A stretch of DNA of 64,000 bases from a virus. The stretch's first letter is position 1, and each line of letters begins with the position of its first letter. The stretch lies in the UHGV virus genome UHGV-1370141. The stretch is one strand, 5' to 3'. Positions 10,078-37,805 of the stretch are shown here, one piece after another. A model generated the notes under the pieces. That model worked only from the letters and a program-made list of their open reading frames with translations. It was not told the origin of the DNA and made no database searches. Both the position numbers and the translations under genes were made by a program.

Positions 10078-10509
10078 TTAGCGAACGTTGTGTGCTAAGT
10101 ACATTAGCGTACGGGTGTCGATATCACGAGAAGTTTGTGACATTTGGTTCAGTAGAGTGCTGGCAGTAGGGTCGTTGTAAACACGACTTAACCACTCGTC
10201 AACCATTTCTGGTACAGTGTCGACTAAAAGCGGATAGTTAAGATTTTCCAGTGTGTATTCAACGAATTCGTGCATCAGATTCTGGTCACGATGCATAGTG
10301 TCACCTAACTCACCTACAGGGTACTCTTCACGAGGACGTTTACCCCAGCTACAGATGTGCATGTAGTTAGTATTCACAATTTCTTGATATTCTTCTAACT
10401 TAACTAAATCGAAGTCAGTATTTGGACGACAGAAACCTGCTAAAACGCCTAAAGCAATCGGATTGTTACGAATGTAGTTACGGATATCATCTTTTAATAG
10501 GAAAAACAT
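10078..10509 (-). CDS. hypothetical protein (paralog of 11775..12218)
   Basis: 143 aa; N-terminal region (..IRNNPIALGVLAGF..LEEYQEIVNTNY..) aligns with 11775..12218 (..IRKYPASIPVLASL..VEKFHEVVKSSY..). Confidence 0.5.
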   Translation of the reverse strand: MFFLLKDDIRNYIRNNPIALGVLAGFCRPNTDFDLVKLEEYQEIVNTNYMHICSWGKRPREEYPVGELGDTMHRDQNLMHEFVEYTLENLNYPLLVDTVPEMVDEWLSRVYNDPTASTLLNQMSQTSRDIDTRTLMYLAHNVR

Positions 10510-10541
10510 TTTAATGCTCCTTTAGGTAAATACAATAATAG

Positions 10542-11774: not shown

Positions 11775-12218
11775 TTATTCGTAGTTGTGCTTAAGGAACT
11801 CTAAAGCACGTTGGTCATTGGTTAATGCTACTGCCGACATTTTCTTTAAGGCTTGACGACAGTAAGCGTCACTCACAATACGTTGTTGCCAAGCATTGAC
11901 AATTTCCGTAACGGTTTCTCCTTCTACAGCCGTATTGAGTTTATCGATAAAGTGACGTCCCATCAGATACGCAACTGCGTAGTCCGTGAACATCTCTGTA
12001 CCGAAATCACCGTCTGGGTAGTCAGCACGTTTCCGCACTGACATATCGGTAACGATTTGATACGACGACTTCACCACTTCGTGGAATTTTTCTACCGTTA
12101 AGGTGTTAAGGTCCATACCCGATAAAGAGAGTGAAGCCAGTACCGGAATACTGGCTGGGTATTTACGAATGTAATCACGCAACTCTAATTTCAGTTCTTT
12201 GCTCATTGAACTCACCAC
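11775..12218 (-). CDS. hypothetical protein (paralog of 10078..10509)
   Basis: 147-aa ORF; paralogy seen by eye. Confidence 0.5.
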   Translation of the reverse strand: MVSSMSKELKLELRDYIRKYPASIPVLASLSLSGMDLNTLTVEKFHEVVKSSYQIVTDMSVRKRADYPDGDFGTEMFTDYAVAYLMGRHFIDKLNTAVEGETVTEIVNAWQQRIVSDAYCRQALKKMSAVALTNDQRALEFLKHNYE

Positions 12219-12685
12219 TTATATTCAAACAAATAGCTGGAGAAAACATCGGCGAAATTTTCTAAATCATCGGTGTCAATCAAATCCAATCCTTTATTCA
12301 GAGATCCTAGCCATGTACCGTCGTAGCAAACTGCCATTACAGAATGGCGAACTTTTAGTTTACCGTCATTAGTAAATGAACGTTCACCGTTCTCGCCCGC
12401 CTCGTAGCGTTCCCCATTGTCAGCCAAGATAACCAGTTTGTCTAACGGGATGAAAGCGTCCATTACAACAAAGTCATAACGTGCAGTGACATGATTGTCG
12501 GTTACAGTTAAACGTTCAATAATGTAAAGGTTTGAATCACGTTTCAGCTCTTTGCTTTTTCTCCATCCATTCTTAATCAGCGAAAAAGCATCGCTTCTGC
12601 CAGTAAACAGATCTTTAATTTTATAGGTTTTTTCTACTGAATGGAAAGCGGCATGAACGTTGCTGTTGATTTCTAAGCTAAACAT
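12212..12685 (-). CDS. hypothetical protein
   Basis: 157-aa ORF, no motif. Confidence 0.45.
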   Translation of the reverse strand: MFSLEINSNVHAAFHSVEKTYKIKDLFTGRSDAFSLIKNGWRKSKELKRDSNLYIIERLTVTDNHVTARYDFVVMDAFIPLDKLVILADNGERYEAGENGERSFTNDGKLKVRHSVMAVCYDGTWLGSLNKGLDLIDTDDLENFADVFSSYLFEYKW

Positions 12686-12733
12686 ATTCTATTCCTTATA
12701 TACAAGTCGAAGAGTTAATGTGTTAATTTTCGT

Positions 12734-13228
12734 TTAGAGATGTTTTTCGATAACTTCCGAAACTAATTCGTAAAGGTCATCGTCGCTGCACACTTCTACA
12801 CTAATTCCGATATCGATACTACGACTACGGAACCCAACTTTGAGCGATTTACCGAACTCGGTTTGAAAGGCTTTATAGAGGATGTTCTTATCTTCTTCTG
12901 TGAGGCGAACAGGTAGTCTAACGGTGAACTTGTAATGTTCTTTCGAAACAAGTTCGTTGGAATAATTGAGTCGTTTGGCTCCACGCGTTCCGACAATCTG
13001 TGTTACCAGCTTAAACATTTCCTCGTCGGTATACGCTGTTGCGCTATAACCGATATCGATAGTGTTTCTGCGGAAACCTGCGCAGAACAAAGCACCGAAC
13101 TGTTCACGGAATTCTTTGTACAGGACGTCTTTTTCTACGTCCAGTAATCCGTAACCCAAGTCAACAGTAAATTTGTATTTTTCTTTGTCAACCAATTCAT
13201 TAGTGTAATCAAGTCTAGTGAAGTTCAT
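12734..13228 (-). CDS. hypothetical protein with internal tandem duplication
   Basis: 164 aa made of two ~80-aa repeats (LDYTNELVDKEKYKFTVDL.. and LNYSNELVSKEHYKFTVRL..). Confidence 0.5.
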   Translation of the reverse strand: MNFTRLDYTNELVDKEKYKFTVDLGYGLLDVEKDVLYKEFREQFGALFCAGFRRNTIDIGYSATAYTDEEMFKLVTQIVGTRGAKRLNYSNELVSKEHYKFTVRLPVRLTEEDKNILYKAFQTEFGKSLKVGFRSRSIDIGISVEVCSDDDLYELVSEVIEKHL

Positions 13229-13258
13229 GGTATATGCTCCTAAAATGGTTTTAGTTAA

Positions 13259-13299
13259 GTGAGAGCTTTCGTACTCTCACCTAAGTAATATATATCTGA
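13259..13299 (-). promoter_or_regulatory. conserved promoter-like motif plus 5' hairpin (copy 1)
   Basis: Hairpin gtgagag..ctctcac followed by ctaagtaatatatatctga, upstream of the gene starting at 13228; same architecture recurs at 16799-16844 and 37721-37769. Confidence 0.5.
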
Positions 13300-13310
13300 A
13301 AATATTTTAA

Positions 13311-13649
13311 TTAAAACCCAGCAATAAAACTGCCTAATGAAAGACGCTGTAAGTATTTTGGCTTACGTGCCAGGTAACAGTTCTTAGGATTACCTATCGC
13401 CATCTGTGCAACCGCACGTTCTAAACGCGGTGCTTCTAAGATAGCACGATAGTTCCCTTCGTAATGCATTAACCATGCACACTCTTCAACAAAACGTTTT
13501 GCTTCTCGGTATTCTAACGTACGAATACGTTTCTTACCACGATACAAAACCACATCACCATTACTACGAAATACAACCGTTTCACGATTCATTGATTTTA
13601 CCCCATAATTCTCGCCGTAAAACTTGTTTATACATATCGACCTGAGCAC
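13311..13649 (-). CDS. hypothetical protein
   Basis: 112-aa ORF; true start may be the internal ATG at 13592 (MNRETVV..), which reduces overlap with the upstream gene. Confidence 0.4.
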   Translation of the reverse strand: MLRSICINKFYGENYGVKSMNRETVVFRSNGDVVLYRGKKRIRTLEYREAKRFVEECAWLMHYEGNYRAILEAPRLERAVAQMAIGNPKNCYLARKPKYLQRLSLGSFIAGF

Positions 13650-13896
13650 GACAATCTTTTGTGGCCTTCTCTAGTATTAAAAAACCAGCTTCTTTTGGCA
13701 ATTTCTCCTCGCAAATGTACTCGGTAATAGCACAAAGCTTGTAATAAAGCTCTAGCTGTTCCCTGAGCGATTTTTCCTGCACTTTAATTAATTCATCTTG
13801 CTTAGCAATAACCTTTTCATTAACTTCGCAGACAGGACATTTCTTACGTTTAAATAGCCGAATTAGTTTAAAAACCATTATCGCCACCGTTTGCAA
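13582..13896 (-). CDS. hypothetical protein
   Basis: 104-aa ORF with a CPVC pair near the N-terminus. Confidence 0.4.
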   Translation of the reverse strand: MQTVAIMVFKLIRLFKRKKCPVCEVNEKVIAKQDELIKVQEKSLREQLELYYKLCAITEYICEEKLPKEAGFLILEKATKDCRAQVDMYKQVLRRELWGKINES

Positions 13897-14176
13897 TCCA
13901 GGTTGCTACACGAACGTGTGCACTGTGAAAGTTAGAGACTAAGAGTATTACACCACCTAACGTACGTGGAACGCGTAAGGCTTCGAAACGACGACAGTAA
14001 GAACGTACACAATACTCAGAACCTAAGATAACGATTTCGCAGTATTCTGAACGAATCGGCAGTAGTTGAGAAACGAGTTTATCACACGTTTCTTTGTTGT
14101 CTTCTAATAACCCGCCACTGAGAATATAGTTGACGATGTTCTCAGGTGCCGATGTGTTTGCGATTTTATTTTCCAT
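13868..14176 (-). CDS. hypothetical protein
   Basis: 102-aa ORF. Confidence 0.4.
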   Translation of the reverse strand: MENKIANTSAPENIVNYILSGGLLEDNKETCDKLVSQLLPIRSEYCEIVILGSEYCVRSYCRRFEALRVPRTLGGVILLVSNFHSAHVRVATWIANGGDNGF

Positions 14177-14178
14177 CG

Positions 14179-14577
14179 TTAAACTCCTATAGTGATCTCC
14201 GTGATGTGCATTCTTCGCATCTCACGAGTCATTCTGTCTATTGCCCGTTGACATTCGAATAAATTGTCGTAGTATTTCTGGGCAGTAACGTTGAATATAA
14301 TCCGACCTTCTTTCAATTGTTTAGCAACGACTTTTGTAGTTTCCGATTCAAACAGCAGACCACCTTCCCTGCCAATCTTAACTAAAACGTCACGAATAGC
14401 AACGTTTATAAGCTCGCCATTTGGGGAAACCACGATTTCCGTATACCAGTCGCCCTCACTAACGATACGTTGTACCCTTTCACCGCATAGCCAGTTTTTG
14501 ACTTTCCCATTGACGAATAATTGGGCCTTTAGTAACAAACGTCTTTTTAAGTAAGATAAACGCATCATGCAAATCAC
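14179..14577 (-). CDS. hypothetical protein
   Basis: 132-aa ORF. Confidence 0.45.
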   Translation of the reverse strand: MICMMRLSYLKRRLLLKAQLFVNGKVKNWLCGERVQRIVSEGDWYTEIVVSPNGELINVAIRDVLVKIGREGGLLFESETTKVVAKQLKEGRIIFNVTAQKYYDNLFECQRAIDRMTREMRRMHITEITIGV

Positions 14578-14583
14578 CTTATC

Positions 14584-14604
14584 TCCCTCGGGAAAACCGA
14601 GGGA
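14584..14604 (-). terminator. intergenic hairpin or terminator
   Basis: tccctcgg-gaaaa-ccgaggga between genes ending at 14612 and starting at 14577. Confidence 0.4.
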
Positions 14605-14611
14605 GTGCTAA

Positions 14612-14893
14612 TCACAGTTTCTCTTCTATTGTATCGATTCGAACTAACGCATCGTGACTGACTTTACGTGCGTGTCCAATCGTACTACCTAAAGCTTTTG
14701 TTGTTGGGTCTAAGGTATTCAGACGGTGATACTGATAATCGATATCTCGTATACAACGCGCCTGTTGTTTTACCATCCGAATTAATTGTCGTTTGGTCTG
14801 ACGATTGTTACTAAGTTCCTGTCGTAATCGCGTGTTTTCTTTATAAAGCTCCTGTTGACGTGTGTTAATTAAACCCAACAACCAATCTAACAT
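14612..14893 (-). CDS. hypothetical protein (coiled-coil-like)
   Basis: 93-aa ORF rich in Q/R/L heptad-like sequence. Confidence 0.4.
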   Translation of the reverse strand: MLDWLLGLINTRQQELYKENTRLRQELSNNRQTKRQLIRMVKQQARCIRDIDYQYHRLNTLDPTTKALGSTIGHARKVSHDALVRIDTIEEKL

Positions 14894-14895
14894 TT

Positions 14896-15411
14896 TTACC
14901 CCCTGTGCAAGAAAATGCGGTTAGTGTTTTCGAATTTCGGTTCTGTCCACTCTAGTTCCCAGTAAGCCTGGTTAATATCGCGAGACGTGAGTTTCAAATT
15001 CGAAACACCGGGGATATCGATCTGTTGCAGTAAATTAATAATCGTCACCAGCTCTTTACGAGGACGGTTCCAGATAACTTCAAGATACTCTTTCAGACGT
15101 TCTGGGTAAGCAACGGGGCGAATATAGACTAGCCCAGAAGGATACTCAATTGCTGAGGGTGTTCTTGGCACTAACCAAACCCAGTCTTTTAATAGCGGTC
15201 CTGGGTGATAATTCGAGAGTTGGGTAAGCGCGTTCGCGACGGAACAACAGCGAAAATACATGATGTCCCAGTCTTTTTCGAAACAATTACGTGCGACCAG
15301 GACCTTTAGCTTATCGATAGGTTTACCGTCAATCGTAGTAACACCTGGCTGATTAGCCAAGATTTGACGTTCACGTTTGGTATAAAGATTCATGTTGATT
15401 GTTACAGACAT
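14896..15411 (-). CDS. hypothetical protein
   Basis: 171-aa ORF. Confidence 0.45.
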   Translation of the reverse strand: MSVTINMNLYTKRERQILANQPGVTTIDGKPIDKLKVLVARNCFEKDWDIMYFRCCSVANALTQLSNYHPGPLLKDWVWLVPRTPSAIEYPSGLVYIRPVAYPERLKEYLEVIWNRPRKELVTIINLLQQIDIPGVSNLKLTSRDINQAYWELEWTEPKFENTNRIFLHRG

Positions 15412-15453
15412 TTAATGCTCCTTTAGGTAAATAGTGGGGTAATTAAGCCTTCG

Positions 15454-16296
15454 TTATTTAAGATTCCGAACTTCTCTCATCTCGTTACAAAATCTATCAA
15501 ACAGCTGGGCGTATTCGCCAACGTGAGCTTCTAGCTGTCCAAAAAAGTGGCGTGAAAGTCGTTCGCTGATTTCTTTTTCGTATTTCTTGAGAACGTGTTT
15601 AAAATATTCACCGTCTCTCTTAATTTTCTGCGCAAGGGGTTCCAGAACTTTAAGAACCCATGGTTTGTTTGGGATCAAGAGATTCAGGTTACCTTCAAGA
15701 TATTTGCTTTGATAAATTATAAATAGATGGTGTTCGTGTTCATCTTTCACTGCGCGAATAAACTCGGCAGCATCGGCCTCGCTAATATCCTCAACTGTAA
15801 ATAGCAGAATATTTTCTTTCTCTATGTCATTCAATAGGTTATTTAAAAAAGCGCGATAAGTAGCACCTTCATAGTTCACTTTAAGCACGTTGTTTTCAAC
15901 CAGATAAGTGAATTTGTCGTTGTAAAAAAGGTATAATATCGAACCGATTTTACCTGCCTGTTTGGGGGTAAGTGGAATCTCGTCTGTGAAGTAAGCGACG
16001 TCTTTCGCAGTTGGCTTGTCTTTTAGCCTACAAGTCATTTGATCCGGAATTTCTGGATCTTTAGGCGTCTCAACAGCCCGTACTAAAATATCCATAACCG
16101 CACTAATGAGCTTGTTAGGGAAATCGACCTCGCCTTCTACCCAGAAAATGTTAAACGCTTCTGATTTAACTTTATAGTAAAACGTGTATGTGTTTTGTAG
16201 CTCAGTGATTTCTTTAATTTGATCCTCAGTAGGGATAGGGGAAATTTTAAACTTGTTGATAACCTTTTCTTCTTCGGTGAGTTCGAACTGAAACAT
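15454..16296 (-). CDS. hypothetical protein (shares EADA..EF.R repeat unit with 10586..11752)
   Basis: 280 aa; segment ..VEDISEADAAEFIRAVKDEHEHH.. resembles the repeat unit of the 388-aa protein. Confidence 0.5.
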   Translation of the reverse strand: MFQFELTEEEKVINKFKISPIPTEDQIKEITELQNTYTFYYKVKSEAFNIFWVEGEVDFPNKLISAVMDILVRAVETPKDPEIPDQMTCRLKDKPTAKDVAYFTDEIPLTPKQAGKIGSILYLFYNDKFTYLVENNVLKVNYEGATYRAFLNNLLNDIEKENILLFTVEDISEADAAEFIRAVKDEHEHHLFIIYQSKYLEGNLNLLIPNKPWVLKVLEPLAQKIKRDGEYFKHVLKKYEKEISERLSRHFFGQLEAHVGEYAQLFDRFCNEMREVRNLK

Positions 16297-16307
16297 GCTA
16301 CTCCTCC

Positions 16308-16751
16308 TTAAATCATTGCTGGGAATTCGAAATCAATCTTATTTACGATCCCGTAATCTTCTTTTAGTTGAATGTTTAATGTTCCCTGAAATAACTCAAG
16401 AGAACCGATGAAGAACGCTGTGTAGCAGTTTCCACGAACAGAAAAGGCAAGATCCAATCCCCTTAAACAGCGTTTTAAGGTATCGTGTTCTTCTTTACTA
16501 CCGAACAACTGGAAATTGATAACGGTAATCTGTTTGTTAATGATTGCCATTAACCAATTTTTAATTCTTTTCGTGGTTATACTCTCTTTAAAATCGTTAG
16601 CTTCTGGTAGCCAACTAACGTGAACAAACGGAGCGGCATAATCCACGCGAACCTTTTGCTGCCAACGTACTTGCATCAAACCACGAATACGATTTGCTAA
16701 CGTTTCAGAATCACAAAGTAGCATAATGCCATTAGTAGTATTTGGTTTCAT
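16308..16751 (-). CDS. hypothetical protein
   Basis: 147-aa ORF, first gene downstream of promoter-like motif copy 2. Confidence 0.45.
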   Translation of the reverse strand: MKPNTTNGIMLLCDSETLANRIRGLMQVRWQQKVRVDYAAPFVHVSWLPEANDFKESITTKRIKNWLMAIINKQITVINFQLFGSKEEHDTLKRCLRGLDLAFSVRGNCYTAFFIGSLELFQGTLNIQLKEDYGIVNKIDFEFPAMI

Positions 16752-16798
16752 AATTGTCCTTCCTTCTTAATGTACTCTTCAACTCAGCTATAACTAGT

Positions 16799-16844
16799 GG
16801 AGTGAACGTAATTTTCACTCTCCCCTAGGTAATATATATCTGAG
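16799..16844 (-). promoter_or_regulatory. conserved promoter-like motif plus 5' hairpin (copy 2)
   Basis: Hairpin gagtgaa..ttcactc followed by ctaggtaatatatatctgag; located between the terminator at 16858-16884 and the gene start at 16751. Confidence 0.5.
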
Positions 16845-16857
16845 AAAAAATAAAAAA

Positions 16858-16884
16858 GGTAGTAGGGGCTAAGCCCCTACTACC
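16858..16884 (-). terminator. rho-independent terminator
   Basis: ggtagtagggg-ctaa-gcccctactacc with a T-run following on the minus strand, directly after the stop of 16891..17511. Confidence 0.65.
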
Positions 16885-16890
16885 TAAAAT

Positions 16891-17511
16891 TTATTTCATT
16901 CCGTTCTGAGAAAGTGTTGTCCCTGCAAGATGCTTAATAACGATCTTGACAGGCAAATTACTATTCTCGTACTGTACTTCGGTTTCAGACAAATCGGTGA
17001 TATCGACAACTTTAGAAGGTACTTTCGCTAAGACAACCCGAATGGTGTGGGTTATCGTACTGGCTGTGGTCTTTGTATTACTAATGTAGAAGTACGCATC
17101 AATAATACCGCCGTCTTCTGCCAGATAAACCAATTTATTTTCCAACAGACACTGGGTATAAATTGACACTCCAGATAATTGCGAAATCCCCAGTCTATTA
17201 TTAACGTCAACTGTTGTTTTGCAGATTACCGCACCACCTGTCAACGTTTTTTCTACCACCATATTTCCCGATAAGGTTTTTGCATCCATTTTTGGTACAA
17301 TCGGATGAGTGCCGTCAACAAACAACCCATCGCTGTTAGACTTAAGGATGTTATTCGCCGACGGACTCACTGTAACCTCGCCACCCCCTAATTTCTCAAT
17401 CGGGAGTTGGTATTCAGTTTGTTCCTTAGACGCTAAGACTACTACACCCGTGATGTCTTCTGAAAGTGTCTCCAGTTCATGAATGCGCACCTTTCCTACC
17501 AGTTCAGCCAT
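16891..17511 (-). CDS. putative short tail fiber/receptor-binding protein with conserved N-terminal anchor domain
   Basis: N-terminus MAELVGKVRIHELETLSEDITGVVVLASKEQTEYQLPIEKL matches the N-termini of the long tail fiber (23767) and of 26851..27312. Confidence 0.55.
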   Translation of the reverse strand: MAELVGKVRIHELETLSEDITGVVVLASKEQTEYQLPIEKLGGGEVTVSPSANNILKSNSDGLFVDGTHPIVPKMDAKTLSGNMVVEKTLTGGAVICKTTVDVNNRLGISQLSGVSIYTQCLLENKLVYLAEDGGIIDAYFYISNTKTTASTITHTIRVVLAKVPSKVVDITDLSETEVQYENSNLPVKIVIKHLAGTTLSQNGMK

Positions 17512-18026
17512 TAGTGGCCTCCGAATGTTAAGACACGGTTATCTGCGGTAACGATTAAATCGTTGTCTTTTACTACAGCGGCTTCTTCATCGTTACCGAA
17601 AACCAGAACGGAGAATTGGCCTTTATAACCTAACGAGTTGGGTGAAACCTGTAACGTTACAGCGTCTTTCCCTACGGTAAATGATTCGTCGGTAAGATCG
17701 TCGGGTTGTAAATTACAACCACAAGCCGCGTTAATTCCGTCGATTAGATCGTGTGCGGTAAAGCCATTACCGGAAACCTTTACCAGAATAGGTTGCTGGT
17801 TTAACCACCGCTCTGCGGTTAAACGGTTGTAATAAATCTGTAACGTTCTGTTGTCCGGACGTTTTATCTTTACAACAGCAGTGGTGTCACGATCCATTTC
17901 GTTACTGGTCTTTACGTCGCTGACTTCAACCTCGTTCTCTTGCAGGTCGAGCTGGAGGTCATGGTTAACCAGTGAAATAACCATGTTAAGTGAAGTTAAC
18001 GACAAATCTGGCGTGAATTGTTCCAC
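17511..18026 (-). CDS. hypothetical protein (paralog of 27278..27841), tail fiber-associated
   Basis: N-terminal ..PDLSLTSLNMVISLVNHDLQLDL.. aligns with ..PDLSLTSAELVVALINHDNGLQL.. of 27278..27841; GTG start preceded by AGGAGG. Confidence 0.5.
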   Translation of the reverse strand: MEQFTPDLSLTSLNMVISLVNHDLQLDLQENEVEVSDVKTSNEMDRDTTAVVKIKRPDNRTLQIYYNRLTAERWLNQQPILVKVSGNGFTAHDLIDGINAACGCNLQPDDLTDESFTVGKDAVTLQVSPNSLGYKGQFSVLVFGNDEEAAVVKDNDLIVTADNRVLTFGGH

Positions 18027-18647: not shown

Positions 18648-19286
18648 TTAAACACGTGAACCGTATATTGCACCTACTGCGTCCCATCTTGGCGCATTAC
18701 CAGTAACAGCTTTACCAGCTGCTCCGCCGTTATATTCTGTACCGTTACCATGAGTATTACATCTTCCTCCAGCAGCACCGACATTACCACCCGAACCGCC
18801 TGTATATGCACTAAGAGACCCCTCACCAACAGATCCTCTACCAGGAGCGGAAATAGTACCAGCAGCTGCACCGGAACTCATATGAGAGGAAGACCCACCA
18901 GCACCGCCTGGCGAGTTAGAACCACCGTTGCCTCCTCTGCCGTATACTGTAACCCCAGGATTGATGATGAGTGTAATATACGAATTTGGAAGATTGCTAG
19001 GGAATTCTAAACAAGGAACCCCGCTACTATAAGACACTAAATCCCCTGTAATGGTCACAACGACAGCAGTAGAGCCTAAAGAACGTAAATAGTTAATAAG
19101 AGTATCCTTATTATAGCTATGGTTAGCACCAATAGAATAATGGACCTCTTTTGATTTTCCCGCCAATTGCGACATCCAGCCTGGAACCGGCACACCAAGT
19201 GTGCGCATCGCGCCAGACATCCATTCGTTACCAGCTTCAGCTTTTGCTGAAGAACCAATCCAACCACCTACGCCGACAACTGCCAC
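18648..19286 (-). CDS. Gly-rich tail fiber-associated protein
   Basis: 212 aa with long Gly/Ser/Ala tracts (GGNGGSNSPGGAGGSS...); GTG start overlapping the tail fiber stop by 1 nt. Confidence 0.5.
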   Translation of the reverse strand: MAVVGVGGWIGSSAKAEAGNEWMSGAMRTLGVPVPGWMSQLAGKSKEVHYSIGANHSYNKDTLINYLRSLGSTAVVVTITGDLVSYSSGVPCLEFPSNLPNSYITLIINPGVTVYGRGGNGGSNSPGGAGGSSSHMSSGAAAGTISAPGRGSVGEGSLSAYTGGSGGNVGAAGGRCNTHGNGTEYNGGAAGKAVTGNAPRWDAVGAIYGSRV

Positions 19287-22200
19287 TAGGATCTCCCTTT
19301 GATTTCGTTAACCTCTTGACGCAACGCTTTCATACCCTCTACTAACAGCGCAATAACGCCATTGTAGTTTAGACGTAAACGTTTTTCGCCTGAAATGGCA
19401 TCATCATCCTCAGACACAAGTTCAGGTAACGCTTCTAATGCGTCTTGAGCAATTAGACCTACAGAAGTTTGCCAACCGTCATCCGGATGCTGAATTTCGT
19501 ACAAATAACCAGTTAGTAACTCTAACCGATCCAAAGCCTTATCCAGCTTCACCAGATTACGTTTGTTACGACGGTCAGAACGAATCTGTACGTCGTTAAA
19601 CGAACCGTTACCGCTGCCAGTAACGTTATGACCAAAGGTTACTTGGCCATTAGCGTTATTAAAATACAACGGACGTAGTCCGTTCCAGGAACCCGTTGCA
19701 GCTTGTCCGGCGTCGGTTACTAAGAAATAGGTATTGGCACCATCGTTACGTAACATAAAGCCGTAGTTGCCGTAAGCGATTCGAAAATCAGGGTACTTAG
19801 TGACCAATTTACCGTTAACGGTTAAATCGCCACCTATAGTACCGCCCCCTGACGGTAACGCACCGATGTCACCAGCGTTAGGTTTGTTGTGTGTGCTGTA
19901 AATCAGATAGACGGTACCGTCTGTTAGTCCTGCGGGTTTATTAGCCGTATAGCTTGGCGATGTGTGAATCGTTACGTTGGCATTACTAGTGTAGTCCCAC
20001 TGAATATTAACACCGGTGGCGTAATTACCTATTTCAACATAAATATCGTAAGTGTCACCAGATGTATTCACCCATGCAAAATTAGTGAAGCCGACTGAGG
20101 TCAGTCGCCATAACGCACCAGTAATACCTTTTGGATTCCCATTTCCTGCACGCAGAACCAGCTCAGAGATACCTGCTTGATGCGGGGAACCAACGTTAAA
20201 CCCTGCACCACCAATCAGGCTTATGTAAACCACGGAACTGGCTTGTGGCATCGTTACAGTTGCTAGTTTGAACCATCCGGCACCACCATTAAAAGACACA
20301 GTTGTTGTGTTCGCGGCACCAACATTTCGTAAGAATTTTCTCTTATCTGGAATATCGGCACCGTTCTGTTTCTTCTGCAATGACCCACCGGCCAATTCTA
20401 CAGTTTGGCCAAGATTTAAACTTTCAGCCGTTATTTCGATGTTTTTAGTGCCGTCAAACGCAATACCGTTGATGGTTCTTGCAGTTTGCAACTTTGTTGC
20501 AGTGGCCGCGTTTCCGGTGGTCGACTGATTACCCGTTTGGTTTACTCCAGGAAGATTAACGTCTTTCGTCCCATCGAAAACCACACCACCGATCCTACGT
20601 CCTGTTTGTAACTTGGTAGCGGTTGCTGCATTACCTGTCGTATTCTGGTTGCCTTGCTGGTTAACCCCCGGTAAATTGATATCCCCAGTACCGTCAAAGG
20701 TAACGCCGCCGATTCTGCGAGCGGTTTTCAGTTTCGTCGCGGTAGCGGCGTTGCCGGTAGTATCTTGATTACCTGTGGTATTTACGCCAGGAATACTGTC
20801 ACGGGCAGTATAAACTTGTGCCCAATCTGACCACGGCGCATCTGCCGTATCACGTCGACTACGAATATAAACTGGCGCGTGCGCACCACTCGTGCCCGAC
20901 CAACCAATTAACAACTCGCCTTCGCCTAGCGCAGCAGAACCACCCAAATGCAGTAAGTTACCATAAGCGGTCGGATAACCGTTATTGTAAACTTCGTACA
21001 TCTGAATACCAGGCGTACCTTTGTTTGAACCAGTCAGTGCAGTAACACGTCCACGTCCTACCAACGTGTTGATATTGATGTCTCTAGACCCATCAAATTT
21101 CACACCGTTGATGTTTCGAGCCGTTTGTAATTTGGTTGCGGTTCCCGCGTTCCCAGAGGTGTTTTGATTACCTTGTTGGTTAACACCTGGGAGGTTAACG
21201 TCGCCGCTACCGTCGAAGGCGACCCCACCAATTCTACGTGCCGTCTTTAATTTAGTGGCGGTTGAAGCATTGCCTGTTAACTCACCTGCTAACCCTTTTG
21301 CAAAGGTCTGTTTTTCTGCCCAGGTGTGCGCTGCGTTCAATACAGGCATCTGGCGTGGCGTAATTGTTCGACTACCTTTCTCACCAGCGATACGAACAGC
21401 AAAGAAGCGATAGTTGGCAGTAGACACCGTACTACGCCAAACCAACATGCTCCGACCGGTGCCGGTGTCATCAGACGGCCCTACAAGGATGTTAACTAAG
21501 TTACCGTCAATCACACCCCAATCCATTCCCGCAGGAATATTTTTCATGGTGTTCAACGGTGACGTTAACATCTGACCGGGAACGAAGTCGTAGGTTTGCC
21601 AGTCTAACGGGTCAACCTTAGCAGCTACACCACCAATGCCTAAAACTAACGGAAGTGAATACGAGGTGAAAACCTCTCGCCACCCACTCCAAATGTTACC
21701 CGTACGGATACGTTGGAATTTACGACCTTTAGTTTCTCTACCCGTGCCGTATGTGGTATAATTCTGTTCGACCCCTGTACCGTCTAAGCGTAAGGTAACT
21801 TCACAAACGCCTACCACGGTTTCGCTAGAAGAACCGATAAGTGGACCGTTAGTTGCCTCACCAGTGACACTGAAACGACCCGGTTTAACGAGATCGTTAA
21901 AATTGGCTTTAAAGAAAGCACCGTCAGTCTGATAACCAACCTGAATCCAATCTTCCCATTGTGGGTTTGATGAATCCCACGTTGCAGTCAAACCACGGAC
22001 ATACATTGTGCCACGACGCGTAGTGTATCGCTGCAACCGTCCGAAAAGACCACCTTCCATTACTTCTAGTACGCCTTGCGCGTTACCGCCTTCTTCAGGG
22101 TAATGCCGGTCGAACACCGCTAACGAACTGGACGAGTTCCGCCAGTTACCCATATGCTCAGCGCCACCCAGAGAGTTCAAGTCTATAGAGGTAGACAGTG

Positions 22201-23767
22201 GGCGAACACCAGTGGTTACCATTCTCCACGGTGACCAGGGTCCATTAGTTCCGTTCCACACACCTGACAACATACGGTTGTACACGTTACCATTACGACA
22301 GGTAAAACGTTGCGCGCCACTGTAGTTGCCCGCTTTATACACTTCCAGATAACCGACTGCACCGTCTTCTGGGAAGTGTTTTGCCATCGACGCATTGGTT
22401 GATGTCGACTTAGACCACGTTCCTGTGTAATTAGCATCTGGAGCAAATGTGTTAATATCAGCATCTACAGGCATTTCGCCACGGAAACGCAGGTAGGTAT
22501 CAGGAGATAGGCCGATGTTGCGAGCAAAAGTTTCTTTATCTGGGATATCAGCGCCGTTAGAGTTTTTCTGTAACGCACCATTCGCTTTATCGACGGTAGT
22601 TTTCAAACCCAGGAAGTTAATGATATCCGCCGTCGACCCTTTCGCTAACAAATCGCGCGCAGTCGAGGTGAAATCCGCTAATCCCACCCGATTACTACCG
22701 GTAAAGTAAGGGAGTTTGTTTGCAGCGGTGGTGACTGCGGCAATCGCTGTCAGTAACGGACTTAACGGCTGTTTACCCGCGAGTTGGTTCGTTATCGTTG
22801 TCGCAAAGTTAGGATCGTTTCCTAACGCGGCTGCAATTTCTGATAACGTATCTAACGTCTCGGGTGAAGAGTCCACTAATTCAGCAATCGCTTGCCGTAC
22901 CCATGCCGTCGTTGAGACTGTCGTGTCGTTAGAATCCGCAGCAGGAGTCGGAGCTTTTACTACGCCAGTAAACGTCGGCGAGTGACGGTTTGCTTTTAAC
23001 TGCAAATCATCATTTAACTGCTTAACCGTTGACGGTGTAGCCGCTTCCGTAACCGAGTCACTGGTTAAGGTATTATTAAGTTTAACGATACCTTTACTGG
23101 ACGTTGTTGCATCAACGTTACCTTTTGCAGCGATTTCCTCTGCACGCTTAGCGGCTGCCTCAGAACGCGTTGCCGCATTCTCTGCGGTTTCTTTGTCTGA
23201 GGTAACTTGCGTTGCTGTAGCCTCTACAGAGGCTTTTGACGACTCTACTGACGCGACAGCTTCGTTAACTGCCGTAAGCGACTGTTCTACTTGACCGGCT
23301 TGTGTGGCAACAGTTTCTGCTTTCTTCGTAACGGTAGTCACCGCTTGTGTGACGTTGGCCTCGCTTGCCGCTACCGCTTGTGCTTTCTCATTAACGGACA
23401 CAACCTGGGTATCTACCGCCGTTTTCGCGGCTAACACTTCAGTGTGTTTTGTACCGACCTCAGTTGCTTTTTCGGTTACAGTTTGCGCTTGTTGAGCAAC
23501 CGTAGCCGCAACGGTGTCAGTTTGTTGTTTTGCTGTTTCTGCTAAATTCTTTGCTTGTGTAGCCTGAGTTGCAGCTTCTTGTGATTGTGTTGCTGCTGCT
23601 TGTGCATCAGACACCGCATTACGCACGGTGTCAATATCTGCAACGATCTCACGGACTGGTAACTTATAATCTTTCTCATCTTTGGAGAAAAGTAAAACAC
23701 CTTCACCGATATCCCCGGTGTATGGACGTAAGTCGTGTAAACGAATTTTCTTTACCGCTTTAGCCAT
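19286..23767 (-). CDS. long tail fiber protein with C-terminal intramolecular chaperone (peptidase S74-like) domain
   Basis: 1493 aa; Ala/Thr/Gln-rich N-terminal region after a conserved anchor; five tandem copies of a ~33-aa GN..TATKL.TAR.I.GV.FDG fibre repeat; C-terminus ..DRRNKRNLVKLDKALDRLELLTGYLYE..GLIAQD..NYNGVIALLVEG.. resembles the self-cleaving chaperone of tail fibers. Confidence 0.85.
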   Translation of the reverse strand: MAKAVKKIRLHDLRPYTGDIGEGVLLFSKDEKDYKLPVREIVADIDTVRNAVSDAQAAATQSQEAATQATQAKNLAETAKQQTDTVAATVAQQAQTVTEKATEVGTKHTEVLAAKTAVDTQVVSVNEKAQAVAASEANVTQAVTTVTKKAETVATQAGQVEQSLTAVNEAVASVESSKASVEATATQVTSDKETAENAATRSEAAAKRAEEIAAKGNVDATTSSKGIVKLNNTLTSDSVTEAATPSTVKQLNDDLQLKANRHSPTFTGVVKAPTPAADSNDTTVSTTAWVRQAIAELVDSSPETLDTLSEIAAALGNDPNFATTITNQLAGKQPLSPLLTAIAAVTTAANKLPYFTGSNRVGLADFTSTARDLLAKGSTADIINFLGLKTTVDKANGALQKNSNGADIPDKETFARNIGLSPDTYLRFRGEMPVDADINTFAPDANYTGTWSKSTSTNASMAKHFPEDGAVGYLEVYKAGNYSGAQRFTCRNGNVYNRMLSGVWNGTNGPWSPWRMVTTGVRPLSTSIDLNSLGGAEHMGNWRNSSSSLAVFDRHYPEEGGNAQGVLEVMEGGLFGRLQRYTTRRGTMYVRGLTATWDSSNPQWEDWIQVGYQTDGAFFKANFNDLVKPGRFSVTGEATNGPLIGSSSETVVGVCEVTLRLDGTGVEQNYTTYGTGRETKGRKFQRIRTGNIWSGWREVFTSYSLPLVLGIGGVAAKVDPLDWQTYDFVPGQMLTSPLNTMKNIPAGMDWGVIDGNLVNILVGPSDDTGTGRSMLVWRSTVSTANYRFFAVRIAGEKGSRTITPRQMPVLNAAHTWAEKQTFAKGLAGELTGNASTATKLKTARRIGGVAFDGSGDVNLPGVNQQGNQNTSGNAGTATKLQTARNINGVKFDGSRDININTLVGRGRVTALTGSNKGTPGIQMYEVYNNGYPTAYGNLLHLGGSAALGEGELLIGWSGTSGAHAPVYIRSRRDTADAPWSDWAQVYTARDSIPGVNTTGNQDTTGNAATATKLKTARRIGGVTFDGTGDINLPGVNQQGNQNTTGNAATATKLQTGRRIGGVVFDGTKDVNLPGVNQTGNQSTTGNAATATKLQTARTINGIAFDGTKNIEITAESLNLGQTVELAGGSLQKKQNGADIPDKRKFLRNVGAANTTTVSFNGGAGWFKLATVTMPQASSVVYISLIGGAGFNVGSPHQAGISELVLRAGNGNPKGITGALWRLTSVGFTNFAWVNTSGDTYDIYVEIGNYATGVNIQWDYTSNANVTIHTSPSYTANKPAGLTDGTVYLIYSTHNKPNAGDIGALPSGGGTIGGDLTVNGKLVTKYPDFRIAYGNYGFMLRNDGANTYFLVTDAGQAATGSWNGLRPLYFNNANGQVTFGHNVTGSGNGSFNDVQIRSDRRNKRNLVKLDKALDRLELLTGYLYEIQHPDDGWQTSVGLIAQDALEALPELVSEDDDAISGEKRLRLNYNGVIALLVEGMKALRQEVNEIKGRS
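20450..21300 (-). repeat. tandem in-frame tail-fibre repeats (about 99 nt unit; 3 + 2 copies), approximate bounds
   Basis: Repeated nucleotide blocks encoding GNQ.T.GNA.TATKLQTAR.I.GV.FDG..D.NLPGVNQ within the tail fiber gene. Confidence 0.55.
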
Positions 23768-26800: not shown

Positions 26801-26850
26801 GCTAACGATAACGCGTAGCTAATCGCGTGACGCTGAAAATGTTTTCTCAT
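23845..26850 (-). CDS. putative tailspike/depolymerase-like receptor-binding protein (catalytic body lacking its own anchor)
   Basis: 1001 aa, Trp/Tyr-rich, located between anchor-domain genes and the tail fiber; its ATG directly follows, in frame, the TAA of the upstream anchor gene. Confidence 0.5.
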   Translation of the reverse strand: MRKHFQRHAISYALSLAYGHQSFVTRNTGTTHDAHNEHYIQNEEGVLSNNRHFIADTMAEYQPNGDATTEGQSLHIIGYCHMYIATKDERWLDAAKHAWDAYNTYFYAGQPIPTTPQRRICNWLVNGKEPVLAHYPIHPTEPTNGGYKCVPVRFTNGQCKIPHGAPFWGEYLDICTFAHRGHPAWAAINADVQIIKEDKEGSINWEDVLTHVITNPDKPYESIAWVDWPTLLNNATGYTPLWGGSATKAPKYDVDWIIAWTGNKIQDSEIIETGLADADKGTVQLKDTQLNGVYLINYAVKLPVEHGGYEFKRNEPWHNRPVHTPFLGSKNQYGNAADAELWFIDACYLLWRITGEEKYKQALDCAFYTAHEYTYIDAVDKFFRRSTAAETPFTDGISYDFNYPDTVSVTYGRDENGDITIHAPEAVQHFMEQQAVRFRINKDSKLRVTYGGVCKNGDPVYCKAMVNINPAKADTEEVNWYGLTLPRSTVNTVKQYDIDLGQLSRITTPEGGDYLIAEARACSDYGGCTWEERFEDSIYDGRAGTVVEAEFPDDSAGFIIGFWLTAEEKVKPVSIVYRADADFNLRLVDSDNWRWWWMLPNTNNEWRQVTLNPDEATLSGYQPDHTDADPKPSAPNFDKVDQVTILPDSTVDHAHFAYYCVNDVPPVFNKDDGYILTFRIALRGGAEFDAKVGDCTIVDYRLDSLAYCPGTIPFTNSYLEGSEQLGAWHGMPYPGYQYPFMYSIHKDDRYKLWLDNQIQFLYDSQLAYQQQIGELGPGCAAYIWNRWDNYSYGEADTWTTFHWGDDHPWAGYQPRAFHAACRCWYELKLRGKDVPEALTSYIDNWVNWLGGFVDRFNGHTPNEFPTAPDKAVWVENDFTAHMCGLWLAGCCWALLAGATNPNYDKVVNAAIKELGEGFTITSIPNKPINGAWSPAARESSDNGMAYGFYTGEVLRALGLYVTYKTYGANANIYRDLAITDHSQAALDVTLTVEDVPLKPEQ

Positions 26851-32400: not shown

Positions 32401-32406
32401 CACTGC

Positions 32407-32676
32407 TTAAATCTTACGACTGCTACCGTAGCAGCCACGACCTGCTGTCGTTTTCGCAGCACTGACAGGTGCTAACGCAGCCATCGTACCATCGGCCTTA
32501 ACAATGTGTAAATTACCTGCGCGAACCAGACCTTTAAAGGTAATCTTCACACCTTTGCGTAAACTCTTCACTTCATACCCGTCGAGTTTGAGTGTTTTAA
32601 CTTTTTCAGGTTTACCTTCTTCGTAATAGGAAAGAACATTACCCGCACGTTTCTCAACAATGTAAATCTTAGCCAT
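32407..32676 (-). CDS. hypothetical protein
   Basis: 89-aa ORF bounded by hairpin elements. Confidence 0.4.
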   Translation of the reverse strand: MAKIYIVEKRAGNVLSYYEEGKPEKVKTLKLDGYEVKSLRKGVKITFKGLVRAGNLHIVKADGTMAALAPVSAAKTTAGRGCYGSSRKI

Positions 32677-32699: not shown

Positions 32700-32740
32700 G
32701 TGAGAATTCTCACATAGATGAAATATATCTTAAATTTTTT
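32700..32740 (-). promoter_or_regulatory. degenerate copy of promoter-like motif plus hairpin
   Basis: gtgagaattctcac hairpin followed by atagatgaaatatatcttaaatttttt, upstream of the gene starting at 32676. Confidence 0.35.
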
Positions 32741-32777
32741 AGACCGTTAACAACACAATGCTGAAGCCATATCGAAA

Positions 32778-37333: not shown

Positions 37334-37693
37334 TTAGTGTGTTGCGGTGTTAGTAACAAAACGAATATTCTTCGCGGTACGTTTAAGGGACGTATTTGCA
37401 ACGTAGTCCAACGCAGACTCTACGTGAACCGTTACTGAGCAACGCCCTTTAACGGAGTTAAACGTAATCTGATATTTCAGGCGAATTGCATCAGCAACCT
37501 TCATCATTATCGGTAGACTCAGGCGTTCGCTACGATCGTTCTTAATAGATGAAATAACCGGTTGTGAAACTTTCGCAAGCTGGGCAAGTTCACGCTGTGT
37601 AATGTCTTTCGCTGTCAAATGACGAATCACGTAAGAAAGATGAAGACCGAATTTACGTTTTGCTAAAACAATAGAGTTGTGATTATAAGCCAT
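37334..37693 (-). CDS. HTH (XRE-like) DNA-binding protein
   Basis: ..LTAKDITQRELAQLAKVSQPVISSIKNDRS.. is a helix-turn-helix; start placed at the internal ATG (MAYNHNS..) because the ORF-track extension to 37831 covers the promoter-like motif and hairpin. Confidence 0.55.
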   Translation of the reverse strand: MAYNHNSIVLAKRKFGLHLSYVIRHLTAKDITQRELAQLAKVSQPVISSIKNDRSERLSLPIMMKVADAIRLKYQITFNSVKGRCSVTVHVESALDYVANTSLKRTAKNIRFVTNTATH

Positions 37694-37720: not shown

Positions 37721-37769
37721 GTCGTAAAAGAGATTACGATGTAATCTCACTAAGGTAATATATATCTGA
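37721..37769 (-). promoter_or_regulatory. conserved promoter-like motif plus 5' hairpin (copy 3)
   Basis: Hairpin gagattac-gat-gtaatctc followed by ctaaggtaatatatatctgag; located between the tmk terminator and the HTH gene start. Confidence 0.5.
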
Positions 37770-37781
37770 GAAAAAATTAAA

Positions 37782-37805
37782 TAACCCCTACCCGAAGGTA
37801 GGGGG
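37782..37805 (-). terminator. rho-independent terminator
   Basis: cccctacc-cgaa-ggtaggggg directly after the tmk stop, with an A-rich flank on the plus strand. Confidence 0.55.

What the first reader, a model, noticed from the sequence alone, without database searches (positions are those of the whole stretch)
13259..13299. Recurrent promoter-like motif with invariant architecture: terminator, TAATATATATCTGAG box, hairpin, gene
Near-identical 20-nt motifs (plus-strand c-t-a-r-g-taatatatatctga) occur at 13281-13299, 16825-16844 and 37749-37769, each followed towards the gene by a small hairpin and then the start codon, with a degenerate fourth copy at 32700-32740. This conserved arrangement suggests a phage-specific promoter class with a structured 5' UTR.
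Basis: seen in the sequence. Interest (0 to 1): 0.55.

Follow-up and report, generated by a model that had tools for sequence, protein, structure and literature searches.

The report
Jumbo-phage early promoters with 5' hairpin
The repeated motif is the already-described early promoter of phiKZ-like giant phages, presumably read by the RNA polymerase carried in the virion, here in a new SPN3US-like phage; a conserved stem-loop at the start of each transcript does not appear in the papers I could read.

Summary
TCAGATATATATTACYT (minus strand) occurs three times, against 0.00 expected. An unbiased repeat search and a covariance model return these four sites and no others.

The window comes from a jumbo phage related to Salmonella phage SPN3US and Erwinia phage phiEaH2 (major capsid protein 78-80% identical). 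In the 6 kb tested, the promoter box was the only nucleotide-level match to any deposited phage.

The box (A/T-rich, TTTCAGATATATATTACYTAGGTGAGA) matches the published predicted early promoters of phiKZ (TATATTAC), 201phi2-1, OBP and N1M2. The virion-packaged multisubunit RNA polymerase is thought to read these.

The hairpin is also real:
- Across 49 non-identical copies from related contigs, folding energy drops sharply just downstream of the box.
- The stem covaries.
- G-T pairs outnumber A-C pairs 43 to 5, which places the fold on the sense strand.
- phiKZ early promoters lack it, so it is specific to this clade.

Its function is inferred. The most likely role is a 5'-terminal stem-loop that stabilises early mRNAs.

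A terminator lies upstream of only 2 of the 4 window copies, so that part of the architecture is not invariant.

The parts
13281..13314 (-). Promoter copy A. An A/T-rich upstream stretch, then TTTCAGATATATATTACTTAG. The exact 15-mer lies at 13285-13299. No terminator lies upstream: the preceding ORF's stop codon is at 13311-13313.
   Evidence: covariance-model hit E=1.9e-7; the only megablast match to deposited phages
13259..13280 (-). Hairpin A: GUGAGAGU-ACGAAA-GCUCUCAC, 8 base pairs. It begins at about the inferred transcription start.
   Evidence: leader MFE -13.9 kcal/mol, z -4.09
12734..13228 (-). Gene downstream of copy A (164 aa, no family match). AGGAG Shine-Dalgarno at 13237-13241.
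   Evidence: not homologous to SPN3US gp135, which follows the equivalent promoter there
16857..16885 (-). Intrinsic-terminator-like hairpin (13 base pairs, then a T-run) just upstream of promoter copy B.
16825..16856 (-). Promoter copy B: TTTTTTATTTTTTCTCAGATATATATTACCTAG. The exact 15-mer lies at 16829-16843.
   Evidence: covariance-model E=0.0032
16796..16824 (-). Hairpin B: GGGAGAGUGAA-AAUUACG-UUCACUCC. The core stem lies at 16800-16820.
16308..16751 (-). Gene downstream of copy B (147 aa, no family match).
37785..37804 (-). Terminator-like hairpin CCCCTACC-TTCG-GGTAGGGG followed by TTATTTAATT, upstream of promoter copy C.
   Evidence: member of repeat family D2
37751..37784 (-). Promoter copy C: TTATTTAATTTTTTCTCAGATATATATTACCTTA. 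The exact 15-mer lies at 37755-37769.
   Evidence: covariance-model E=1.5e-6
37730..37748 (-). Hairpin C: GAGAUUAC-AUC-GUAAUCUC, 8 base pairs.
37334..37693 (-). Gene downstream of copy C: a Cro/C1-type helix-turn-helix protein (119 aa). It is the orthologue of SPN3US gp101, which carries the same promoter.
   Evidence: 40% identity; SPN3US promoter copy at 94244
32714..32747 (-). Degenerate promoter copy D: GGTCTAAAAAATTTAAGATATATTTCATCTAT. It is in the same register as the others, with 3 of 8 mismatches in the TATATTAC core. No upstream terminator.
   Evidence: PWM 21.7 against 50-58 for A-C; E=1.3; one base differs across three related contigs
32700..32713 (-). Hairpin D: GUGAG-AAUU-CUCAC.
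   Evidence: z -2.13
32407..32676 (-). Gene downstream of copy D (89 aa, phrog_12339, unknown function). A terminator follows at 32376-32399.

Best explanation
The four sites are early promoters of a phiKZ-related (SPN3US-like) jumbo phage. This promoter class is thought to be read by the multisubunit RNA polymerase packaged in the virion and injected with the DNA.

The promoter has four elements:
- an A/T-rich stretch near -30;
- TTTCAGA near -20;
- the TATATTAC core near -10;
- YTAGGTG around the start site.

Transcription most likely starts at a G within GGTGAGA. The transcript would then begin with a short stem-loop (core stem GAGAnnnn/nnnnUCUY), followed by a roughly 50-nt leader, a Shine-Dalgarno sequence and a small gene.

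Shown here: the sequence identity with the known class, the positional architecture, and the conserved sense-strand hairpin.

Inferred: which polymerase reads the promoter, the early timing, the exact start site, and the role of the hairpin.

My preferred reading of the hairpin is a 5'-terminal stem-loop that protects early mRNAs from 5'-end-dependent decay by the host (RNase E / RppH). I give that about 0.4 on its own. The 0.85 confidence applies to the promoter assignment.
For: 1. The phage is a jumbo phage of the right kind.
- The major capsid protein (59626-61911, minus strand) is 78-80% identical to those of SPN3US, phiEaH2 and Asesino.
- Gene order is collinear with SPN3US from about 68 to 143 kb.
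- SPN3US has annotated RNA polymerase beta/beta' genes.

2. The sequence matches the published class.
- PMC7058600 Table 2 lists the predicted early promoters: phiKZ TATATTAC; 201phi2-1 TTAWTAVAA_HYWTTTRARR_BTATATTACDWHDGTG; OBP and N1M2 ...WWWWWTTTCARRYAKATATTATYWAAGTGWA.
- The window consensus is WWWWTTTCAGATATATATTACYTAGGTGAGA.

3. The literature describes this class.
- Every RNA-polymerase-encoding jumbo phage has a conserved AT-rich motif of about 10 nt, centred near -10, upstream of early operons. It was confirmed as the early promoter wherever transcripts were mapped (PMC7598289).
- phiKZ: an extended -10 plus a T-rich element upstream of -19 (PMC8244752).
- 201phi2-1: conserved -10, -20 and -30 regions, upstream of hypothetical genes (PMC11512511).

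4. The motif is under strong selection and is specific.
- It is the only megablast match of window 12000-18000 to 50,697 phage records.
- The 20-mer GATATATATTACYTAGGTGA hits 39 stretches of IMG/VR. All lie on contigs of 107-246 kb except one 7-kb fragment.
- SPN3US has 6 strong copies and 4 weaker ones. One weaker copy precedes gp22-gp23; gp23 is annotated as an RNA polymerase beta subunit.

5. The architecture fits a promoter.
- 48 of 49 copies have a Shine-Dalgarno sequence and start codon, at a median of 57 nt after TATATTAC.
- 32 of 49 have a terminator within 90 nt upstream.
- The downstream genes are small and of unknown function.

6. The hairpin is real.
- Mean folding energy of 30-nt windows falls to -6.1 and -7.7 kcal/mol at +10 and +15, against about -1 elsewhere. 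Mean z is -3.0, and 43 of 49 copies have z below -1.5.
- All 49 copies have a hairpin starting 0-8 nt after TATATTAC.
- On the covariance-model alignment, 92% of cells are paired against 73.7% in shuffles (0/500). 57 cells changed on both sides against 18 (0/500). The covariation score is 0.331, against 0.063 or less for slid controls.
- G-T pairs number 43 against 5 A-C, which indicates the sense strand.
Against: - There are no transcript data for this phage or, in the literature I could reach, for any SPN3US-like phage. Promoter activity, start site and timing rest on homology.
- As of the 2017 AR9 paper (PMC5312081), no virion RNA polymerase of this group had been purified. I found nothing later, so the link between polymerase and motif appears correlative even in phiKZ.
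- The window itself carries no RNA polymerase gene.
- I found far fewer strong copies than phiKZ has: 3-4 in this 64 kb window and 6-10 in SPN3US, against 28-32 early promoters in phiKZ. Other early promoter variants may exist.
- The covariation alignment was fitted to the model, which biases it towards pairing.
- The stabiliser role of the hairpin is untested. phiKZ manages without such a hairpin.
Confidence: 0.85

Rival explanations
1. The hairpin with its following U-rich tract (…UCUUUUA) is a leader attenuator or conditional terminator. It would yield short RNAs of about 30 nt from the 5' UTR, or gate read-through into the gene, rather than act as a stability element.
For: - Many copies carry TCTTTTA at and after the 3' arm (covariance-model consensus).
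- Premature termination inside 5' UTRs, giving abundant short RNAs, is reported for phiKZ and 201phi2-1 (PMC10914365; PMC11512511).
Against: - The stems are short and AU-rich (-6 to -12 kcal/mol).
- Only 2-3 U residues lie beyond the stem.
- Copies A and B have no U-tract.
- The terminator scan did not flag any of these hairpins.
- The genuine terminators of this phage have GC-rich stems (families D2, D3, D6).
Confidence: 0.12
2. The sites are ordinary host sigma-70 promoters: TATATT acts as a -10 element read by the bacterial RNA polymerase.
For: - The core contains TATATT, one mismatch from TATAAT.
- At copy D the scan finds TTAACG-17-TATATT, matching 9 of 12 positions.
Against: - The sigma-70 scan does not call copies A, B or C. 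Its total count of sites is at or below the shuffle expectation.
- There is no -35 hexamer and no TG extension.
- About 25 contiguous bases are conserved, including positions sigma-70 does not read. This exact pattern is confined to jumbo-phage contigs.
- phiKZ infection is unaffected by the host RNA polymerase inhibitor rifampicin.
Confidence: 0.04
3. The motif is a promoter, but of the middle or late class read by the non-virion polymerase rather than the early class.
For: - Timing was not measured.
- A related variant, GGATAGATATTATCAAAGGGAGA, lies just downstream of the major capsid gene, in a structural-gene region. A copy occupies the same position in SPN3US.
Against: Published middle and late motifs look quite different:
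- phiKZ middle promoters have TACT at about -22 preceded by an A-rich stretch.
- phiKZ late promoters have only TATG at the start site.
- In contrast, the TATATTAC-type extended consensus is the early one.

Copies A-D precede small genes of unknown function, as the early promoters of 201phi2-1 do.
Confidence: 0.06
4. The repeated 45-nt cassette matters mainly as a recombination substrate, a mobile regulatory cassette that shuffles genes as the promoter-early stem-loops of T4-type phages do. This would be in addition to, or instead of, its role in transcription.
For: - The same promoter precedes non-homologous genes in the window and in SPN3US.
- In related contigs, sequence upstream of copy D diverges right at the edge of the promoter.
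- The stem of hairpin C is identical to that of a promoter in front of a different gene in a related contig (L148 against L076).
Against: - This is a by-product reading. It does not explain the tight spacing to the Shine-Dalgarno sequence and ATG, the strand bias, or the covariation.
- Comparing the T4 cassettes is from my own memory, not from a tool result.
Confidence: 0.1
5. The box is an operator for a DNA-binding regulator, for example the helix-turn-helix protein encoded downstream of copy C.
For: Copy C drives a Cro/C1-type helix-turn-helix gene. The ATATATAT core is partly palindromic.
Against: - There is no dyad symmetry beyond the AT run.
- The orientation is always the same as that of the downstream gene.
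- The match to known promoter consensus sequences covers the whole length.
Confidence: 0.03

Closest known systems
Early (virion RNA polymerase) promoters of phiKZ-related jumbo phages: phiKZ, 201phi2-1, OBP, N1M2, EL
   Same: - The TATATTAC core, the TTTCARR element about 20 nt upstream of the start, and the A/T-rich region near -30.
- A conserved GTG after the core.
- Multiple highly conserved copies per genome.
- Location upstream of small genes of unknown function, often after a terminator.
   Different: - The SPN3US-like version extends the conserved block into the start of the transcript (GGTGAGA).
- It is always followed by a covarying stem-loop.
- Fifteen phiKZ early-promoter-like sites show no such folding signal: mean z -0.49, against -3.0 here.
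SPN3US / phiEaH2 (Seoulvirus and relatives) copies of the same box
   Same: - The 25-nt core TTTCAGATATATATTACYTAGGTGAG is identical.
- The architecture of hairpin, Shine-Dalgarno sequence and ATG is the same.
- Copy C is at the same genome position as the copy in front of SPN3US gp101.
   Different: - Stem sequences differ, with compensating changes.
- The cargo gene behind copy A is unrelated.
- The SPN3US leaders carry an extra AATCGACTATTA box, which is weak or absent in the window.
5'-terminal stabilising stem-loops, such as the E. coli ompA leader and the phage T7 phi10 leader (GGGAGACC…), from my own knowledge
   Same: A short hairpin within 0-2 nt of the inferred 5' end of the mRNA, on the sense strand, followed by a single-stranded leader and a Shine-Dalgarno sequence.
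   Different: Neither the 5' end nor the half-life has been measured here. The analogy is functional only.
Phage N4 virion RNA polymerase hairpin promoters, from my own knowledge
   Same: An injected virion polymerase and a promoter associated with a small hairpin.
   Different: - The N4 hairpin lies upstream of the start site, forms in template-strand DNA, and is the recognition element for a single-subunit polymerase.
- Here the hairpin lies at or after the start site.
- The G-T pairs place it on the sense strand.

Membership tests
phiKZ-type early (virion RNA polymerase) promoter | The host genome is a phiKZ-related jumbo phage that encodes multisubunit RNA polymerases. | tested here: inconclusive
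   - Relatedness is shown: the major capsid protein is 78-80% identical to SPN3US, phiEaH2 and Asesino, and gene order is shared.
- The RNA polymerase genes lie outside this 64-kb window. They are annotated in SPN3US.
- Their presence in this phage is therefore inferred.
phiKZ-type early (virion RNA polymerase) promoter | Extended consensus: an AT-rich core (TATATTAC or KATATTAT), TTTYARR upstream of it, an A/T-rich region further upstream, and GTG downstream. | tested here: met
   The window consensus WWWWTTTCAGATATATATTACYTAGGTGAGA was compared with the published consensus sequences. phiKZ genome copies read directly also fit.
phiKZ-type early (virion RNA polymerase) promoter | Several highly conserved copies per genome, intergenic and in the same orientation as the downstream operon. 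| tested here: met
   - There are 3 strong copies and 1 degenerate copy in 64 kb, all on the gene strand.
- SPN3US has 6 strong and 4 weaker copies.
- 48 of 49 related copies have a Shine-Dalgarno sequence and a start codon downstream.
phiKZ-type early (virion RNA polymerase) promoter | The transcription start lies about 10 nt downstream of the centre of the AT-rich core. | not testable with these tools
   This needs 5' end mapping. I infer a start at a G within GGTGAGA from the published positions.
phiKZ-type early (virion RNA polymerase) promoter | Expression immediately after infection and independent of the host RNA polymerase (rifampicin-resistant). | not testable with these tools
   No expression data are available for this phage.
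Bacterial sigma-70 promoter | A -35 hexamer (TTGACA-like) 16-18 nt upstream of a -10 hexamer. | tested here: not met
   The consensus scan does not call copies A, B or C. Copy D matches 9 of 12 positions, which is within chance.
Intrinsic terminator (for the downstream hairpin) | A GC-rich stem followed by a run of at least 5 T within 8 nt. | tested here: not met
   The scan flags none of the four hairpins. The stems are AU-rich and at most 3-4 T follow.
Rfam RNA families | A match at or above a family's gathering score. | tested here: not met
   There are no matches anywhere in the window.
N4-type hairpin promoter | A hairpin upstream of the start site, formed on the template strand. | tested here: not met
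   The hairpin lies downstream of the conserved -10 core. G-T pairs outnumber A-C pairs 43 to 5, which favours the sense strand.

The most novel reading that the evidence does not exclude
The conserved stem-loop beginning GUGAGAG at the very 5' end of early transcripts may be more than a generic stabiliser. It could be a dedicated recognition tag specific to SPN3US-like nucleus-forming phages. Possible roles:
- a binding site for a phage or host RNA-binding protein;
- a signal that marks virion-polymerase transcripts made inside the early infection vesicle for export or preferential translation;
- an element the virion polymerase needs for promoter escape.

phiKZ lacks it. It would therefore be a lineage-specific second layer of early gene control.
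Probability: 0.2. Interest if true: 0.6.

Novelty: new member of a known kind. Interest (0 to 1): 0.33.

Why it matters
For annotation, these boxes mark the starts of early transcription units in an otherwise unannotated SPN3US-like jumbo phage. They flag the small genes behind them as candidate host-takeover or anti-defence genes.

Among them is a helix-turn-helix regulator that is conserved together with its promoter in SPN3US.

The promoter class itself is not new. The added observation is a positionally fixed, covarying stem-loop at the start of the early transcripts of this enterobacterial clade, which phiKZ lacks.

How early mRNAs made by the injected polymerase survive and reach ribosomes is an open question for nucleus-forming phages (PMC13282480). 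This leader is a concrete, mutable element for testing that. It could also serve as a compact early-expression cassette for engineering these phages.

Tried and rejected
- Searching the 15-mer with up to 3 mismatches, or TATATTAC alone, was not informative: 4 hits against 1.7-2.4 expected. Only the long exact pattern is specific.
- The first IMG/VR scan, with a 14-mer, was swamped by unrelated AT-rich contigs. The 20-mer was specific.
- MAFFT aligned the hairpins without gaps and put the 3' arms out of register. I replaced this with a same-geometry seed and a covariance model.
- A sigma-70 promoter and an intrinsic terminator were considered and not supported.
- No Rfam family and no tRNA was found.
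- I tried to get exact phiKZ and 201phi2-1 start-site coordinates from supplements, but none are held.
- Two primary papers are not in the library: Ceyssens 2014 and Cornelissen 2012. Lavysh 2016, the source the review cites for per-phage motifs, was not looked up. Whether it shows the SPN3US motif could not be checked.
- Generality of the hairpin was tested on 150 kb of phiKZ and rejected.
- The gene behind copy A is not homologous to SPN3US gp135, the gene behind the matching SPN3US box.
- The orthologue of copy D was not among the loci already fetched. It was then found through its downstream protein.

Full report
**1. The observation**

The genes around the finding are on the minus strand. 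On that strand the motif reads TCAGATATATATTAC(C/T)T. Exact copies lie at 13285-13299, 16829-16843 and 37755-37769. The 17-mer TCAGATATATATTACYT occurs three times, against 0.00 expected in 100 dinucleotide-preserving shuffles.

Loose versions of the pattern are not above chance. The signal is the long exact block, not TATATTAC alone.

The fourth copy, at 32700-32747, lies in the same register without an indel (TTTAAGATATATTTCATCTATGTGAGA). It has three mismatches in the eight-base core.

Two independent searches recover the same four sites. A direct-repeat search lists them as its top family (D1). A covariance-model scan of the whole window with filters off ranks them 1 to 4 (E = 1.9e-7, 1.5e-6, 0.0032, 1.3), and the remaining hits are insignificant.

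Each copy is followed by a hairpin, a Shine-Dalgarno sequence and an ATG.

The terminator named in the title exists only upstream of the copies at 16843 (16857-16885) and 37769 (37785-37804). At the other two sites the preceding ORF ends 12-14 nt before the box.

**2. What the window is**

The 761-aa ORF at 59626-61911 (minus strand) is a major head protein. It is 78-80% identical to those of Salmonella phage SPN3US and Erwinia phages phiEaH2 and Asesino.

Gene order is collinear, in reverse, with SPN3US from about 68 to 143 kb. Shared landmarks are the radical SAM gene, the tail protein, thymidylate kinase, a helix-turn-helix regulator and the capsid gene.

SPN3US is a phiKZ-related jumbo phage with annotated multisubunit RNA polymerase genes.

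A megablast of window 12000-18000 against 50,697 phage records matched nothing except about 40 nt at 13273-13314, which is the motif itself. The matches were in SPN3US-like and phiEaH2-like genomes at 93-95% identity. In that 6 kb, the promoter box is therefore the only stretch conserved at the nucleotide level.

**3. The same cassette in relatives**

The matching SPN3US site has a terminator, then TTTTCAGATATATATTACTTAGGTGAGAGTTAACCATTAACTCT, then a Shine-Dalgarno sequence and the ATG of gp135.

SPN3US carries six strong copies, all followed by a hairpin of different sequence. They lie at 56299, 65418, 94244, 113991, 165692 and 223282. It also has four weaker variants. One of these, at 15619, precedes gp22-gp23; gp23 is annotated as an RNA polymerase beta subunit.

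The copy at 94244 precedes gp101, the orthologue of the helix-turn-helix gene behind window copy C. The proteins are 40% identical and the promoter cores are identical. In contrast, the gene behind copy A is unrelated to gp135.

The 20-mer GATATATATTACYTAGGTGA hits 39 stretches in IMG/VR. All are on contigs of 107-246 kb except one 7-kb fragment.

**4. Identity with a known promoter class**

PMC7058600 (Table 2) lists the predicted early promoters of the group:

| Phage | Predicted early promoter |
|---|---|
| phiKZ | TATATTAC |
| 201phi2-1 | TTAWTAVAA_HYWTTTRARR_BTATATTACDWHDGTG |
| OBP | BSHAWWWWWTTTYARRYAKATATTATYWWADTG |
| N1M2 | TBYAWWWWWTTTCARRYAKATATTATYWAAGTGWA |

The window consensus, WWWWTTTCAGATATATATTACYTAGGTGAGA, fits these almost base for base.

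The literature on this class says the following:
- Every RNA-polymerase-encoding jumbo phage has such a motif upstream of presumed early operons. It is an AT-rich block of about 10 nt centred near -10. It proved to be the early promoter wherever transcripts were mapped (PMC7598289).
- In phiKZ the motif is an extended -10 box plus a T-rich element upstream of -19, found at 32 start sites (PMC8244752).
- In 201phi2-1 there are conserved -10, -20 and -30 regions in front of hypothetical genes (PMC11512511).
- These promoters are attributed to the virion-packaged polymerase. As of 2017 that enzyme had not been purified (PMC5312081), and I found nothing later.

I confirmed the phiKZ form directly in its genome: TTTRAR-N3-5-TATATTAC-WAANNTGA.

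**5. The hairpin**

I collected 49 non-identical copies from the window, SPN3US and related contigs.
- The mean folding energy of 30-nt windows is about -1 kcal/mol along the region. It drops to -6.1 and -7.7 at +10 and +15 from the start of the box.
- The mean z-score against shuffles is -3.0, and 43 of 49 copies are below -1.5.
- All 49 copies have a hairpin starting 0-8 nt after TATATTAC, with loops mostly of 3-8 nt. The inner stem positions show several Watson-Crick pair types.

I built a covariance model from seven copies of identical geometry. It aligned 46 hits. On that alignment:

| Measure | Observed | Shuffled control |
|---|---|---|
| Cells paired | 92% | 73.7% (0/500 as high) |
| Cells changed on both sides | 57 | 18 (0/500 as high) |
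| Covariation score | 0.331 | 0.126 |

Controls with the 3' partner slid by 1-3 columns gave covariation scores of 0.063 or less. The alignment was fitted to the model, which favours pairing, but the slid controls and the energy profile do not depend on it.

G-T pairs outnumber A-C pairs 43 to 5, or 13 to 5 without the closing pair. The fold therefore belongs to the sense strand, most simply the RNA.

From the published positions of the core, the start site should fall on a G within GGTGAGA. That places the stem within 0-2 nt of the 5' end. This is an inference.

Fifteen phiKZ early-promoter-like sites show no such signal: mean z -0.49, median 0.0, and 3 of 15 below -1.5. The stem-loop is therefore an addition of the SPN3US-like clade. 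It is not mentioned in the phiKZ and 201phi2-1 transcriptome papers I could search.

**6. Architecture**

In 48 of 49 copies a Shine-Dalgarno sequence and a start codon follow, at a median of 57 nt after TATATTAC. Most lie between 50 and 70 nt. A terminator-like hairpin with a T-run lies within 90 nt upstream in 32 of 49.

The downstream genes in the window have no known function, apart from the helix-turn-helix protein.

Copy D differs at a single base from about -30 to the ATG across three closely related contigs, while the sequence further upstream diverges. It looks like a maintained variant rather than a decayed copy.

**7. Mechanism and rivals**

Best supported: these are early promoters of the phiKZ type. 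They head short transcription units that are often insulated by an upstream terminator.

The hairpin most likely forms the 5' end of the mRNA. By analogy with 5'-terminal stem-loops such as those of the ompA and T7 phi10 leaders (my own knowledge, not tested here), it would protect the message from 5'-end-dependent decay.

Alternatives for the hairpin are a leader attenuator, a protein recognition tag, or an aid to promoter escape. In favour of an attenuator, many copies end in UCUUUUA, and 5' UTR termination is known in phiKZ. Against it, the stems are AU-rich and copies A and B lack a U-tract.

Other readings are poorly supported:
- A sigma-70 promoter is not supported.
- So is an intrinsic terminator.
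- No Rfam family matches.
- An N4-type template-strand hairpin promoter is contradicted by the position and the strand of the fold.

The cassette may also act as a recombination substrate. That would be a by-product of its repetition.

**8. Verdict**

The promoter class is already known, and this is a new member in a new SPN3US-like phage. The clade-specific 5' stem-loop is a modest new detail that is worth an experiment.

Noticed in passing
window 59540-59570 (minus strand), just downstream of the major capsid gene: A variant box, TTTTTTGGATAGATATTATCAAAGGGAGA, resembles the OBP/N1M2-type consensus (KATATTATYWAAG). No hairpin follows it (z +1.47). SPN3US has a similar box at the same genome position (72491) and another at 92545. 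It may be a weaker promoter or one of a different timing class.
   Followed up: partly
window 32364-32402 and 33151-33189: Two copies of a 39-nt block are 92% identical and share the same terminator hairpin, CCCTCTCTCC-GTTT-GGAGAGAGGG. They bracket a small cassette that contains promoter copy D and its 89-aa gene.
   Followed up: no
window 37772-37804, 39202-39234, 46660-46692; also 36589-36622 and 54667-54700: These are families of near-identical GC-rich terminator hairpins. The copy at 37785-37804 is followed by TTAT, as described for phiKZ terminators (PMC10914365); the tails of the others were not checked.
   Followed up: no
window 10510-10532 and 15411-15433: A 23-nt leader, TATTTACCTAAAGGAGCATTAAA on the minus strand, is 100% identical at both sites. 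It lies directly in front of two different start codons (ORFs 10078-10509 and 14896-15411).
   Followed up: no
SPN3US and related contigs (L121, L122, L124, L125, L136, L142, L158 and others); weak in the window at 37705-37725: A second semi-conserved leader box, (A/T)TCGAC(T/C)AT(C/T)A, sits between the hairpin and the Shine-Dalgarno sequence. A loose pattern finds it in about half of the copies (26 of 48). Its function is unknown.
   Followed up: partly
window 12734-13228 compared with SPN3US gp135 (L122 14059-14505): The same promoter-hairpin cassette precedes unrelated genes in the two phages. In a related contig, the stem found in window hairpin C belongs to the promoter of a different gene. 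This suggests cassettes are exchanged or converted between sites.
   Followed up: partly
IMG/VR contigs IMGVR_UViG_3300045988_113438 (220,786 nt), 3300029126_000001 (225,000 nt) and 3300045988_095954 (151,598 nt): These metagenomic contigs are close relatives of the window's phage. The 89-aa protein behind copy D is 87-97% identical, and copies A, B and C have orthologues there. They would allow a whole-genome promoter census.
   Followed up: partly
window 19286-23767 and 23845-26850 (minus strand); 2187-3509 (plus strand): A 1493-aa multi-domain tail fibre protein and a 1001-aa tail protein lie between promoter copies B and D. A radical SAM gene (440 aa) corresponds to SPN3US gp163.
   Followed up: no
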